From Escherichia coli (lineage in GTDB: Bacteria > Pseudomonadota > Gammaproteobacteria > Enterobacterales > Enterobacteriaceae), in assembly GCF_003334785.1 (NCBI RefSeq), contig NZ_QOWV01000012.1: 64,000 nucleotides of DNA. One strand, given 5' to 3'. Position 1 is the stretch's first letter. Each line of letters begins with the position of its first letter. The translations under genes were made by a program, and so were the position numbers. Positions 22,580 to 29,948 of the stretch are shown here, piece after piece. The notes under the pieces were generated by a model that did not search any database, had not been told where the DNA came from, and saw nothing but the letters and a program-made list of their open reading frames with translations.

Positions 22580-22590
<11 letters not shown>

Positions 22591-23443
22591 GCGCCGGAAA
22601 TATCAACCGGCCCACCCCGCGCACCTTTAATGCATCAGCCAACGGCTCAACGTCTTCCGGCGTGGCGCTCGCCCAGCTTTGCGCCTCGCCATACACGCCG
22701 TGGGCATGAAACGCGTTCAGGCGTACCGGAACATCGCCAAGTCCCTTGATAAACGCCGCCAGTTCTTCGATGTGTTGCAAATAATCCACCTGGCCAGGGA
22801 TTACCAGCAAACGCAGTTCCGCCAGCTTGCCGCGCTCTGCCAGCAAACAGATGCTGCGCTTAATCTGCTGATTATCGCGTCCGGTTAATTGTTGATGACA
22901 TTCGCTACCCCATGCTTTGAGATCGAGCATTGCGCCGTCACACACCGGGAGTAATTTTTCCCAGCCGGTTTCGCTCAACATGCCGTTACTGTCCACCAGA
23001 CAGGTGAGATGGCGCAGTTGCGGATCGTTTTTGATAGCAGTAAACAGCGCCACTACAAACGGCAGTTGGGTCGTGGCTTCGCCGCCGCTTACCGTTATCC
23101 CTTCAATAAACAGCACCGCTTTGCGGACATGGCTAAGCACTTCGTCCACGCTCATGGATTGCGCCATCGGCGTGGCATGTTGCGGACACCTCTTCAGGCA
23201 GGTATCACACTGCTCGCAGACCGCAGCGTTCCACACCACTTTGCCGTCAACAATCTGCAACGCCTGATGCGGACACTGTGGCACGCACTCTCCGCAATGA
23301 TTACAGCGCCCCATCGTCCACGGATTGTGACAGTTTTTGCAGCGCAGATTGCAGCCCTGCAAAAACAGAGCCAGACGACTGCCTGGCCCGTCAACGCAGG
23401 AGAAGGGGATAATCTTACTGACTAAAGCGCATCTGCTGTTCAT
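22580..23443 (-). CDS. yjjW: Glycyl-radical enzyme activating protein (radical SAM, with two ferredoxin-type 4Fe-4S motifs)
   Basis: CNLRCKNC radical-SAM motif plus [12 protein letters not shown] and [12 protein letters not shown] cluster motifs. Confidence 0.85.
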
Positions 23444-24965
23444 GGCTTATCACGCGCGGCTGGCGTTCCAGAATACGAGTGTTGCGTGCGGCTTCTTCGC
23501 CCAGCCAGGTGGTGTTGGTGCGTGAACCTTCGGCGCGATATTTTTCTAAATCCGACAAACGCACCATATAACCGGTAACGCGAACCAGATCGTTACCGCT
23601 GACATTGGCGGTAAATTCACGCATTCCGGCTTTAAAGGCACCGAGGCAAAGCTGTACCAGCGCCTGCGGATTACGTTTGATGGTTTCGTCGAGCGTCAGA
23701 ATGTCGCTGATGCCGGAATAATAATAAGCATGATGCGGGGCGACAGTTTGCAGATGGGTGATCGGATCTGGCTCATCGCCATAGGGTAAACGCGCGCCCG
23801 GCGTGGTGCCGATATCGGAACTGATCCCCGACTGTGCGTGTAACATGGCGCGTTTTTGCCAGCCATATTTCACGGGGGTATTGGCGACAAACTCCGCCAG
23901 TTGCGCGCTGATGCGATAACCCACTTCATTTGCGGCGGCTTCTTTACCGTAGCGCGCGGCAATCCCTTCTTTCTCACACAGCAAGTTAACCGCTTCCGCC
24001 AGCCCATACATGCCAAACATTGGCACAAAACGTTCAGGGTTAATCAGCCCTTCTTTCACCAGGAAGCTATTCTCAAAGAAGTGTGATTGTTGATAGAGGA
24101 ATTCACACCGCGCATCGATGATGGCGATCTGCTGCTGGCAGTAGTGCGGTAGAGTGCGCGTAAAGAAGTCATCCAGCGATTCGCTGCGCTCGGCAATGGC
24201 TTTCAGGTTAAGGCGTACCAGCGTGCTGCCACCACCCGCCAGCGGCAGTGAGTTGTAACAGCTCACAATCCCGTAGCCCCCTTTTGTGAAAATTTTATCA
24301 TGCACCGGACCGTTGGCGATGTGCGGTTTGCTACATTCACAGATGTTCTTCGCCACTTCCAGCAGTAGGTCATCAGGGGTGATTTCAGGATCGTAGATAA
24401 AGGTCAGGTTCGGTGAAACCTGCTTCAACTCTGCGTCTGCACGTAAGATTGCACGGGTAATGGGCGAATCAGACGGGCCGATATTGGCGTGCATAAAGGC
24501 GTCTGGCAGGGTTCTGTCGAGGTAACGCCAGAAACGTTTTATTCGAATATCGATCTCGTCTTGTGTTAGAATTCTAACATACGGTTGCAACAACGCATCC
24601 AGTTGCCCCAGGTAGACCGGCATCGATGTGACCGACGGTACGTGGTGGTAAAGAATGGTCAGCAGAGAGAGTGCGTCATCAAGATCTTTCGCGCCTTCCA
24701 GCTCCAGCCATTCGGAACCGTTCGCCAGAAAACGGGCGTAATCGGGTAAGACATAGCGCGGTTTGTACGGCGCATGACCTTCAAACATATCGCAGATTAC
24801 ACCCTCATCCAGCGCACGGCGGGCTTCGGCAGGCAGCTGCGGATAAGGCAGATTGTTTTCTGCTTCAAGTGCCAGAAAATGGCGCTTCTGCTCCGGGCTA
24901 AGCACTGGGCTGGTGACAATTTGCTGGCAACGTTGTTGCAGTGCATTTTCATCAGAAGTGGGCAT
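23415..24965 (-). CDS. yjjI: Glycyl-radical-enzyme-like protein of unknown function (YjjI family)
   Basis: 516 aa; C-terminal RVTGY glycine-radical-like motif; 29-bp overlap with downstream yjjW. Confidence 0.85.
24285..24300. promoter_or_regulatory. Candidate DeoR operator OE (degenerate)
   Basis: tgtgaaaattttatca, imperfect palindrome 279 bp upstream of O1, matching the known OE-O1 spacing. Confidence 0.4.
24564..24579. promoter_or_regulatory. DeoR operator O1 (deo P1), located inside the yjjI coding region
   Basis: Perfect 16-bp palindrome tgttagaattctaaca, 599 bp upstream of O2. Confidence 0.75.
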
Positions 24966-25162
24966 CTTCTTTTCCTTTTATGCCGAAGGTGATGCGCCAT
25001 TGTAAGAAGTTTCGTGATGTTCACTTTGATCCTGATGCGTTTGCCACCACTGACGCATTCATTTGAAAGTGAATTATTTGAACCAGATCGCATTACAGTG
25101 ATGCAAACTTGTAAGTAGATTTCCTTAATTGTGATGTATATCGAAGTGTGTTGCGGAGTAGA

Positions 25163-25178
25163 TGTTAGAATACTAACA
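25163..25178. promoter_or_regulatory. DeoR operator O2 (deo P2)
   Basis: tgttagaatactaaca 45 bp upstream of deoC start. Confidence 0.75.
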
Positions 25179-25222: not shown

Positions 25223-26002
25223 ATGACTGATCTGAAAGCAAGCAGCCTGCGTGCACTGAAATTGATGGACCTGACCACCCTGAATGACGACGACACCGAC
25301 GAGAAAGTAATTGCTCTGTGTCATCAGGCCAAAACTCCGGTCGGCAATACCGCCGCTATCTGTATCTATCCTCGCTTTATCCCGATTGCTCGCAAAACGC
25401 TGAAAGAGCAGGGCACCCCGGAAATCCGAATCGCTACGGTAACCAACTTCCCACACGGTAACGATGACATCGAAATCGCGCTGGCAGAAACCCGTGCGGC
25501 AATCGCCTACGGTGCAGATGAAGTTGACGTTGTGTTCCCGTACCGCGCGCTGATGGCGGGTAACGAGCAGGTTGGTTTTGACCTGGTGAAAGCCTGTAAA
25601 GAGGCTTGCGCGGCAGCGAATGTACTGCTGAAAGTGATCATCGAAACCGGCGAACTGAAAGACGAAGCGCTGATCCGTAAAGCGTCTGAAATCTCCATCA
25701 AAGCGGGTGCGGACTTCATCAAAACCTCTACCGGTAAAGTGGCTGTGAACGCGACGCCGGAAAGCGCGCGCATCATGATGGAAGTGATCCGTGATATGGG
25801 CGTAGAAAAAACCGTTGGTTTCAAACCGGCGGGCGGCGTGCGTACTGCGGAAGATGCGCAGAAATATCTCGCCATCGCAGATGAACTGTTCGGTGCTGAC
25901 TGGGCTGATGCGCGTCACTACCGCTTTGGTGCTTCCAGCCTGCTGGCAAGCCTGCTGAAAGCGCTGGGCCACGGCGACGGTAAGAGCGCCAGCAGCTACT
26001 AA
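25223..26002 (+). CDS. deoC: Deoxyribose-phosphate aldolase
   Basis: 259 aa starting [20 protein letters not shown]. Confidence 0.95.
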
Positions 26003-29684: not shown

Positions 29685-29948
29685 TCATTTATGTTCAGCC
29701 GTCATCCAGGAAGGGCATATCAGCAACTCTGGTGGACAACCATAAATTTCTGCCATTTTGCTTTTGATGTTTGAGCTAAGCCGTTCCGTCTTTTCGATCT
29801 GTTTTAGAGAATTAATCGAGATACCTAACATTTTACTTACTTCAGCAAGCGATAATTTATGCCTGATACGCACGGCGGCTAGCCAGGAAATACGCTGGCT
29901 GAACATTAAATTGATAATCTCCCGTTCCTGGTTTTCCAGATCGATCAT
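29685..29948 (-). CDS. Small XRE/Cro-type helix-turn-helix DNA-binding protein (87 aa), not part of the K-12 map as I recall it
   Basis: ATG with GGAAGGA Shine-Dalgarno 6 bp upstream; HTH segment LSLAEVSKMLGISINSLKQIEK; sits in an AT-rich segment where K-12 carries yjjJ. Confidence 0.5.
   Translation of the reverse strand: MIDLENQEREIINLMFSQRISWLAAVRIRHKLSLAEVSKMLGISINSLKQIEKTERLSSNIKSKMAEIYGCPPELLICPSWMTAEHK

What the first reader, a model, noticed from the sequence alone, without database searches (positions are those of the whole stretch)
24285..25178. DeoR operator triad with deo P1 embedded in the yjjI coding sequence
A perfect 16-bp palindrome tgttagaattctaaca lies at 24564..24579, about 400 bp inside the 5' coding region of divergent yjjI. 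A near-identical tgttagaatactaaca lies at 25163..25178 just upstream of deoC, exactly 599 bp away. A degenerate copy sits 279 bp further upstream at 24285. This reproduces the classical O1-O2-OE DNA-looping geometry of the deo operon and implies the deo P1 promoter and its operator are constrained simultaneously by yjjI coding requirements.
Basis: partly seen in the sequence, partly recalled or inferred. Interest (0 to 1): 0.3.

Follow-up and report, generated by a model that had tools for sequence, protein, structure and literature searches.

The report
Classic DeoR operator triad, rediscovered
These are the three textbook DNA sites through which the DeoR repressor loops DNA to shut off the E. 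coli deoCABD nucleoside-breakdown operon; two of them lie inside the neighbouring gene yjjI, whose codons are frozen there across enterobacteria, but the system itself has been known since the 1980s.

Summary
TGTTAGAATTCTAACA (24564-24579) and TGTTAGAATACTAACA (25163-25178) are the only perfect matches in the 64 kb, and their starts are 599 bp apart. A 4-mismatch copy, TGTGAAAATTTTATCA, lies 279 bp upstream at 24285-24300. The window is E. coli chromosome (yjjW-yjjI <> deoCABD). The two palindromes are the published DeoR operators O1 and O2 at the tandem promoters deoP1 and deoP2, and the third site matches the published OE about 300 bp further upstream.

O1 is yjjI nt 387-402 and OE is nt 666-681. 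I compared 77 loci from about 25 enterobacterial genera in which deoC is the divergent neighbour of yjjI. O1 and OE sit at exactly the same codons in all of them. They are the two lowest synonymous-variation windows in the whole gene. Four Proteus loci, where yjjI has no deoC neighbour, lack both sites and vary freely at those codons. OE alone is not statistically significant, but this conservation shows it is real, and it confirms the proposed dual coding/regulatory constraint.

This is a correct rediscovery of a classical DNA-looping system. The codon-freezing evidence is a small addition. A possible effect of DeoR on yjjI itself is untested.

The parts
24285..24300 (.). DeoR auxiliary operator OE (TGTGAAAATTTTATCA). 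It lies inside yjjI at nt 666-681, codons CAT GAT AAA ATT TTC ACA.
   Evidence: Position 279 bp upstream of O1. Identical in 65/77 orthologous loci and absent in Proteus. Second-lowest synonymous variation window of yjjI. Literature places OE about 300 bp upstream of O1 (PMC8053113).
24564..24579 (.). DeoR operator O1 (perfect palindrome TGTTAGAATTCTAACA). It lies inside yjjI at nt 387-402, codons TAT GTT AGA ATT CTA ACA.
   Evidence: Published DeoR palindrome (PMC5326754). Present at the same codons in 77/77 deoC-adjacent loci, perfect in 55. Lowest synonymous variation in yjjI.
24564..24572 (+). deoP1 extended -10 element TGtTAGAAT, embedded in the left half of O1. The inferred transcription start is about 24579.
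   Evidence: Read from the sequence. This half (ATT CTA ACA in yjjI sense) is the invariant half of O1 across genera. The start is inferred by analogy with P2, where the same element sits at the same offset from the CRP site. The start site was not measured here.
24527..24545 (+). Conserved block GCCAGAAACGTTTTATTCG upstream of the P1 -10. It covers the -35/UP-element region of deoP1 and corresponds roughly to yjjI codons 141-146, including rare CGA141 and ATA142.
   Evidence: Low synonymous variation: codons 141-146 are the 4th-lowest raw window, and the overlapping codons 139-144 are 3rd after amino-acid normalisation. Nucleotide conservation. Rare codons. The function as the upstream part of the promoter is inferred.
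25163..25178 (.). DeoR operator O2 (TGTTAGAATACTAACA). It overlaps the deoP2 extended -10 (TGtTAGAAT, 25163-25171). The inferred P2 start is about 25178, 44 bp before the deoC ATG.
   Evidence: Published sequence. An O2-like site is present in all 75 intergenic regions (74 orthologous loci plus the window): 0-2 mismatches in 60, 3-4 in the other 15.
25077..25145 (+). deoP2 CRP/CytR control region. CRP-2 is TTTGAACCAGATCGCA (25077-25092). CRP-1 is TGTGATGTATATCGAA (25130-25145). The CytR target (ATGCAAA) lies between them.
   Evidence: Conserved blocks in the intergenic alignment. CRP ChIP-seq motif TGTGATGTATATCGAA assigned to yjjI/deoC (PMC4287617). CytR/CRP at deoP2 (PMC3454398). The site positions of -40.5 and -93.5 are recalled from the literature.
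23415..24965 (-). yjjI (YjjI-family glycine radical enzyme, 516 aa). This is the coding sequence that hosts OE, O1 and deoP1.
   Evidence: ORF, RefSeq annotation, TIGR04040 at 788 bits.
25223..26002 (+). deoC, first gene of the regulated operon deoCABD.
   Evidence: RefSeq annotation of 100%-identical genomes; translation [10 protein letters not shown]....
24999..25039 (-). Probable FNR-dependent yjjI promoter. The -10 is TACAAT (reverse complement of 24999-25004). The FNR half-site is TTGAT within box 25026-25039. It lies inside the O1-O2 loop and is crossed antisense by deoP1 transcripts.
   Evidence: TTGATCC and part of the -10 (TGTA) are invariant, and the rest of ATTGTA is near-invariant, in a 19-locus intergenic alignment. 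An FNR ChIP peak with FNR-activated yjjI is reported with 'TSS not known' (PMC3688515). The promoter assignment is inferred.

Best explanation
The three sites are the operators OE, O1 and O2 of the E. coli deoCABD operon.

O1 and O2 each overlap the extended -10 element (TGtTAGAAT) of one of two tandem promoters, deoP1 and deoP2, so bound DeoR occludes RNA polymerase. One multimeric DeoR molecule binds two or three operators at once. This loops out the 599-bp O1-O2 segment, the 279-bp OE-O1 segment and the 878-bp OE-O2 segment, which raises local repressor occupancy at both promoters. The inducer deoxyribose-5-phosphate releases DeoR. deoP2 is additionally controlled by CRP and CytR.

deoP1, O1 and OE lie inside the 5' half of the divergently transcribed gene yjjI, so the same nucleotides serve as codons and as regulatory DNA. 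Selection on the regulatory function has frozen those codons, including rare AGA, CTA, CGA and ATA codons, throughout the Enterobacteriaceae and Hafniaceae that keep deoC next to yjjI.

Shown here: identity, spacing, location in yjjI, and cross-species constraint beyond coding. Taken from the literature: DeoR binding, looping and the inducer. Inferred: the exact transcription start sites.
For: Sequence and statistics: there are two perfect matches, 599 bp apart, and no other match with fewer than 3 mismatches in 64 kb.

Context: yjjW-yjjI <> deoCABD in E. coli. The region is present in 5424 of 5426 complete genomes. The same sites and spacing occur in MG1655.

Literature:
- The exact palindromes are named as DeoR sites (PMC5326754).
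- The two promoters are 599 bp apart and locked by a loop (PMC3334521).
- O1/O2 are about 600 bp apart, OE is about 300 bp upstream, EM shows loops, and about 72% looping is predicted in vivo at the natural spacing (PMC8053113).
- Natural looping reaches up to about 900 bp (PMC4217526).

Comparative evidence:
- O1 is at yjjI nt 387-402 in 77/77 deoC-adjacent loci, and OE is at nt 666-681 in 77/77. Both are absent in 4 Proteus loci, where yjjI is flanked by ytjB-serB instead of deoC.
- Third-position entropy is 0.049 bit (O1) and 0.109 bit (OE), against a gene mean of 1.146. These are ranks 1 and 2 of 511 windows.
- After amino-acid normalisation the deviations are -6.45 and -4.64, against a window SD of 1.25.
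- The underlying YjjI residues are variable across the wider family.
- Rare codons cluster at these sites.
Against: Nothing contradicts it.

Limits of the evidence:
- DeoR binding and promoter start sites were not and cannot be tested with these tools.
- A simple -35/-10 consensus scan does not call P1 or P2. This is expected for an extended -10 promoter and a CRP-dependent promoter, but it means the promoter assignment rests on the literature.
- The exact figure of 279 bp for OE is from my memory of Valentin-Hansen et al. 1986 and Dandanell et al. 1987. The held paper only says 'about 300 bp'.
- O1-O2 spacing is not fixed across genera (567-675 bp, mode 599-603), so '599' itself is not a conserved constant.
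- The O2 candidates in Hafnia and Edwardsiella have 3-4 mismatches and could be chance.
Confidence: 0.95

Rival explanations
1. The palindromes are chance occurrences or by-products of the YjjI protein sequence, with no regulatory role.
For: OE alone is no better than 22 other 4-mismatch sites in the window. The simple promoter scan finds no P1 or P2.
Against: Two perfect 14-specified-base matches occur in 64 kb, where even the matches with up to 3 mismatches are near chance level. All three codon positions are frozen at O1 and OE in 77 loci, while flanking codons vary synonymously. Proteus encodes similar residues (Y-V-G-x-L-T) with freely varying codons and has no palindrome. The residues are not conserved in the wider family. 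The published experimental identification also stands against it.
Confidence: 0.01
2. The third site (24285-24300) is not a DeoR operator. It would be a CRP-type site (TGTGA-N6-TATCA) or another factor's target that happens to lie 279 bp from O1.
For: Its left half, TGTGA, equals the CRP half-site, and it has 4 mismatches to the O1/O2 consensus. CRP ChIP-seq does report a peak inside yjjI (PMC4287617).
Against: The CRP peak motif maps to about 24622-24637, next to O1 and not at OE. That motif shows ordinary codon-type variation. Three of OE's four 'mismatches' are substitutions also seen in natural O1/O2 orthologues, such as TGTTAGAATACTCACA, TGTTAAAAT... and ...TTTTAACA. The literature reports a genetically defined OE about 300 bp upstream of O1 that forms DeoR loops in EM.
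Confidence: 0.04
3. The intragenic sites matter at least as much for yjjI-yjjW as for deo. DeoR bound at O1 (about +415) and OE (about +695) would act as a roadblock. The O1-O2 loop encloses the FNR-dependent yjjI promoter. Derepressed deoP1 fires head-on into that promoter. Together these would make yjjI expression depend on deoxyribose-5-phosphate. This adds to the classical role and does not replace it.
For: The geometry supports it. The probable yjjI promoter (24999-25039) lies between O1 and O2, and FNR activation of yjjI is reported with an unknown start site. The yjjI-deoC adjacency and both intragenic operators are maintained across about 25 genera. No paper in the searched library mentions yjjI together with DeoR, so this has not been examined.
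Against: There are no expression data. Distant YjjI homologues keep the yjjI-yjjW pair but have no deo neighbours, so there is no wider genomic link between YjjI and nucleoside catabolism. Conservation of the operators is fully explained by their role at deoP1 and deoP2.
Confidence: 0.2

Closest known systems
E. coli K-12 deoCABD regulatory region: DeoR operators OE, O1, O2 with promoters deoP1/deoP2 (Dandanell & Hammer 1985; Valentin-Hansen et al. 1986; Dandanell et al. 1987; Amouyal et al. 1989)
   Same: It is the same locus. The operator sequences are identical, the 279/599 bp spacing is identical, and the flanking genes are the same. MG1655 carries the three sites at 4616385, 4616664 and 4617263.
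   Different: There are only strain-level substitutions outside the operators: 31 differences in 2588 bp versus MG1655. One is in the P1 spacer (24548) and one is in the CRP-1 site (25138).
lac operon O1/O2/O3, with auxiliary operator O2 at +401 inside lacZ
   Same: A main operator sits at the promoter and auxiliary operators lie hundreds of bp away. A multimeric repressor loops them together. One operator lies inside a coding sequence (PMC4217526).
   Different: In deo, two operators plus a complete promoter lie inside a gene. That gene is a neighbouring, oppositely transcribed one, not the regulated gene. Both main operators sit on tandem promoters. DeoR is a larger oligomer able to form double loops.
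gal operon OE/OI (OI inside galE) and ara O2-I1 looping
   Same: Repression works by looping between an upstream operator and an intragenic or distant one.
   Different: Those loops are short (about 114 and about 210 bp) and sensitive to helical phase. The deo loops are 279-878 bp, and the O1-O2 spacing drifts by several bp between genera.

Membership tests
DeoR operator triad of the deoCABD operon | 16-bp palindromic operators TGTTAGAA-TT/TA-CTAACA | tested here: met
   Exact matches at 24564 and 25163. The sequences are identical to those quoted as DeoR palindromes in PMC5326754.
DeoR operator triad of the deoCABD operon | O1 and O2 599 bp apart, each on one of two tandem promoters upstream of deoC | tested here: met
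   The spacing of 599 bp was measured and equals the published promoter spacing. Both operators contain the extended -10 TGtTAGAAT. deoC starts 44 bp after O2. Start sites were not measured.
DeoR operator triad of the deoCABD operon | Third, weaker operator OE about 300 bp (279 bp) upstream of O1 | tested here: met
   TGTGAAAATTTTATCA lies 279 bp upstream. It is conserved at all codon positions in 77 loci. PMC8053113 gives about 300 bp. The exact figure of 279 is from memory of the primary papers.
DeoR operator triad of the deoCABD operon | Located at the deoCABD operon of an enterobacterium | tested here: met
   100% identity to E. coli chromosomes annotated yjjI | deoC deoA deoB deoD.
DeoR operator triad of the deoCABD operon | Physical binding of DeoR and loop formation, relieved by deoxyribose-5-phosphate | not testable with these tools
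   Taken from the literature only.
Regulatory element under selection beyond coding constraint (dual-use codons) | Suppressed synonymous variation restricted to the sites, and lost where the regulated gene is not adjacent | tested here: met
   O1 and OE rank 1 and 2 of 511 windows. After amino-acid normalisation they lie 5.2 and 3.7 SD below the mean. Proteus loci without deoC lack the sites and vary at those codons.

The most novel reading that the evidence does not exclude
The DeoR operators inside yjjI and the O1-O2 loop around the FNR-dependent yjjI promoter, together with head-on transcription from deoP1, may place the orphan glycyl-radical enzyme pair YjjI/YjjW under DeoR and deoxyribose-5-phosphate control. 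That would tie this enzyme of unknown substrate to anaerobic (deoxy)nucleoside or deoxyribose metabolism in Enterobacteriaceae.
Probability: 0.15. Interest if true: 0.45.

Novelty: already known. Interest (0 to 1): 0.12.

Why it matters
The deo triad is one of the founding examples of long-range repression by DNA looping in bacteria, so finding it again adds nothing new about mechanism.

The comparative result is a clean, quantitative illustration that transcription-factor sites and a whole promoter can live inside a neighbouring gene. They override its codon choice, forcing rare AGA, CTA, CGA and ATA codons, for as long as the two genes stay adjacent. This is useful as a positive control for methods that look for regulatory elements through synonymous-site conservation.

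The only open biological question it raises is whether yjjI-yjjW, an orphan glycyl radical enzyme system, is itself affected by DeoR or by deoP1 antisense transcription.

Tried and rejected
1. I could not read the primary papers (PMC554662, PMC1167072); they are not held. A full-text search for the operator strings returned only unrelated primer hits. Searches for '279 bp'/'878 bp' with DeoR found nothing new. The exact OE distance therefore rests on my memory plus 'about 300 bp' in PMC8053113.

2. The simple sigma-70 scan did not call deoP1 or deoP2. The only hit, on the minus strand at 24319-24292, is at chance level, and I dropped it.

3. My first DeoC query was out of frame by one base. 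I corrected it, and the synteny conclusion did not change.

4. I considered strict conservation of the 599-bp spacing. This is rejected: spacing ranges over 567-675 bp.

5. I considered the CRP ChIP motif inside yjjI (24622-24637) as an extra constrained element. This is rejected: it shows ordinary codon-pattern variation.

6. I looked for a wider YjjI-deo genomic association in distant homologues and found none.

7. A further low-variation block at yjjI codons 296-301 was inspected. It is weaker, not invariant, does not look like a DeoR site, and is left unexplained.

Full report
**Observation**

Reading the window and searching TGTTAGAANNCTAACA with up to 3 mismatches gives exactly two perfect matches.
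- TGTTAGAATTCTAACA lies at 24564-24579 and is a perfect palindrome.
- TGTTAGAATACTAACA lies at 25163-25178.
- Their starts are 599 bp apart.

All other matches in the 64 kb have 3 mismatches (three sites). The 8 strand-wise matches at up to 3 mismatches compare with 3.49 expected from shuffles.

The third site, TGTGAAAATTTTATCA at 24285-24300, is 279 bp upstream of the first and has 4 mismatches. There are 22 sites of that quality in the window, so it is not significant on its own.

**Context**

The segment is 100% identical to many E. coli chromosomes and is present in 5424 of 5426 complete genomes. RefSeq annotation gives these genes:
- yjjW, 22580-23443 (-)
- yjjI, 23415-24965 (-)
- deoC, 25223-26002 (+), followed by deoA, deoB and deoD

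YjjI and YjjW match TIGR04040 and TIGR04041, a glycine radical enzyme and its activase. In K-12 MG1655 the same three sites lie at 4616385, 4616664 and 4617263 with identical spacing.

Within yjjI the sites fall as follows:
- The first palindrome is yjjI nt 387-402, codons TAT GTT AGA ATT CTA ACA (Y V R I L T).
- The degenerate copy is nt 666-681, codons CAT GAT AAA ATT TTC ACA.
- Both are in the same codon phase, since 279 bp equals 93 codons.
- The second palindrome ends 44 bp before the deoC ATG.

**What it is**

The two palindromes are quoted verbatim as the DeoR-binding sequences in PMC5326754 (citing Valentin-Hansen 1986, Dandanell 1987 and Amouyal 1989). Other held papers describe the system:
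- PMC3334521 states that deoP1 and deoP2 are repressed by DeoR, lie 599 bp apart and are locked by one loop.
[quoted passage not shown] Each site improves repression at the others, loops between all sites are seen by EM, and about 72% looping is predicted at the native spacing.
- PMC4217526 gives natural looping up to about 900 bp. This fits OE-O2 at 878 bp.

Both operators contain TGtTAGAAT, an extended -10 element, in their left half. In P2 the CRP-1 site TGTGATGTATATCGAA (25130-25145; CRP ChIP motif) is centred 40.5 bp before 25178. From memory, the published CRP positions are -40.5 and -93.5. P2 therefore starts at about 25178, and by analogy P1 starts at about 24579, so each operator covers about -15 to +1.

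**Comparative test of the dual-constraint idea**

A scan of 100,044 species genomes with YjjI returned 80 loci, from Escherichia to Proteus. deoC is the divergent neighbour of yjjI in every complete locus except the four Proteus loci. In Proteus, yjjI is preceded by serB and ytjB.

Operator conservation in the 77 non-Proteus loci (two of them, L011 and L062, are cut short upstream so deoC itself cannot be seen there):
- O1 sits at exactly nt 387-402 in all 77. It is perfect in 55 and has 1-2 changes in the rest. The changes fall almost only in the half distal to the -10 element.
- OE is identical in 65 of 77 and has at most 2 changes in the others.
- The Proteus sequences at both places are unrelated to the operators.

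Codon alignments show flanking codons changing synonymously, for example CTG/CTC/CTT and CCG/CCA/CCC/CCT. GTT AGA ATT CTA ACA and GAT AAA ATT TTC ACA stay fixed. Proteus encodes Y-V-G-x-L-T with GTG/GTC/GTT, GGT/GGG/GGC, CTC/TTG/CTT and ACC/ACG.

Quantitatively, over 71 loci below 95% nucleotide identity:
- Third-position entropy in 6-codon windows is lowest at codons 129-134 (0.049 bit) and second lowest at 222-227 (0.109 bit). The gene mean is 1.146 bit.
- After normalising each codon by the mean codon entropy of its amino acid, the two windows score -6.45 and -4.64. The window SD is 1.25, and these are again ranks 1 and 2.
- Low-variation windows also cover GCCAGAAACGTTTTATTCG (24527-24545), just upstream of the P1 -10. 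Codons 141-146 rank 4th in the raw analysis and the overlapping codons 139-144 rank 3rd after normalisation. This is presumably the -35/UP part of deoP1.
- The last codons of yjjI, which overlap the yjjW start, also rank low.

The frozen codons include the rare AGA131, CTA133, CGA141 and ATA142. In an alignment with 19 diverse family representatives of 35-57% identity, the residues under O1 and OE lie in variable, indel-prone segments. The operators therefore occupy tolerant parts of the protein and dictate its local sequence, not the reverse. One example is Gly131 (GGA) in Hafnia, Edwardsiella and Proteus versus Arg (AGA) or Lys (AAA) in Enterobacteriaceae.

**Spacing**

OE-O1 is fixed at 279 bp because the coding sequence has no indels there. 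O1-O2 varies from 567 to 675 bp, with the mode at 599-603. The number 599 is therefore not itself conserved. O2-like sites have 0-2 mismatches in most genera. In Kluyvera, Yokenella, Pseudocitrobacter, Pluralibacter, Hafnia and Edwardsiella they have 3-4 mismatches, and the assignment there is less certain.

**Surroundings**

The intergenic alignment shows the known P2 elements: CRP-2, the CytR target, CRP-1 and O2. It also shows an invariant TTGATCC (25026-25032) about 22 bp from a near-invariant ATTGTA, whose TGTA core is invariant (reverse complement TACAAT, 24999-25004). This is the geometry of a class II FNR promoter for yjjI. It agrees with the FNR ChIP peak and FNR activation reported for yjjI with 'TSS not known' (PMC3688515).

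That promoter lies inside the O1-O2 loop. yjjI transcripts must cross O1 and OE, and deoP1 transcripts cross the yjjI promoter head-on. Whether DeoR or P1 activity affects yjjI is untested, and no paper in the searched library mentions yjjI together with DeoR. Distant YjjI homologues keep the yjjW partner but have no deo neighbours. A functional link is therefore speculative.

**Verdict**

The system is already known and is a textbook DNA-looping paradigm. The added value here is the cross-species demonstration that the intragenic operators and promoter override synonymous codon choice in yjjI, together with the untested idea of cross-talk with yjjI expression. Interest is low.

Noticed in passing
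window 24999-25039 (- strand): Probable yjjI promoter. The -10 TACAAT has an invariant TGTA core, and the invariant TTGATCC is an FNR half-site centred about -41. This fits the published FNR ChIP peak, for which the start site was unknown. The promoter lies inside the DeoR O1-O2 loop and is crossed antisense by deoP1 transcription.
   Followed up: partly
window 24527-24545: GCCAGAAACGTTTTATTCG is conserved at synonymous sites (rare codons CGA141, ATA142). It contains the small palindrome AAACGTTT, which resembles the core of LacI-family (PurR/Cra-type) boxes. I read it as the upstream part of deoP1, but a separate factor site is not excluded.
   Followed up: partly
window 24063-24080 (yjjI codons 296-301): TTCTTTGAGAATAGCTTC is another window of low synonymous variation, 4th after amino-acid normalisation. 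It is not invariant, does not look like a DeoR site, and is unexplained.
   Followed up: partly
loci L002-L077, intergenic yjjI-deoC: O1-O2 spacing falls into classes near 568, 590, 600, 612, 626 and 675 bp. Four of the five departures from 600 are close to whole helical turns, but scatter of +/-4 bp within classes makes this weak evidence for phasing.
   Followed up: partly
window 24622-24637: The CRP ChIP-seq motif reported inside yjjI in ETEC (CGTACCGTCGGTCACA, minus strand) lies about 50 bp downstream of the P1 start. It shows only ordinary codon-pattern conservation across genera.
   Followed up: yes
L078-L081 (Proteus): Here yjjI follows serB and ytjB directly. The deoCABD-lplA block that separates ytjB from yjjI in E. 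coli is missing, and both intragenic operators are absent. This serves as a natural control and hints at when the deo operon came to lie beside yjjI.
   Followed up: partly
window 23415-23443: The yjjI stop region overlaps the yjjW start by 29 bp and is another synonymous-conservation minimum. This is consistent with translational coupling of the enzyme and its activase.
   Followed up: no
window 29685-29948 (- strand): An 87-aa helix-turn-helix gene lies between deoD and lplA in this strain type (annotated in ATCC 8739). From memory, K-12 carries yjjJ at this place. This is a strain-variable spot.
   Followed up: no
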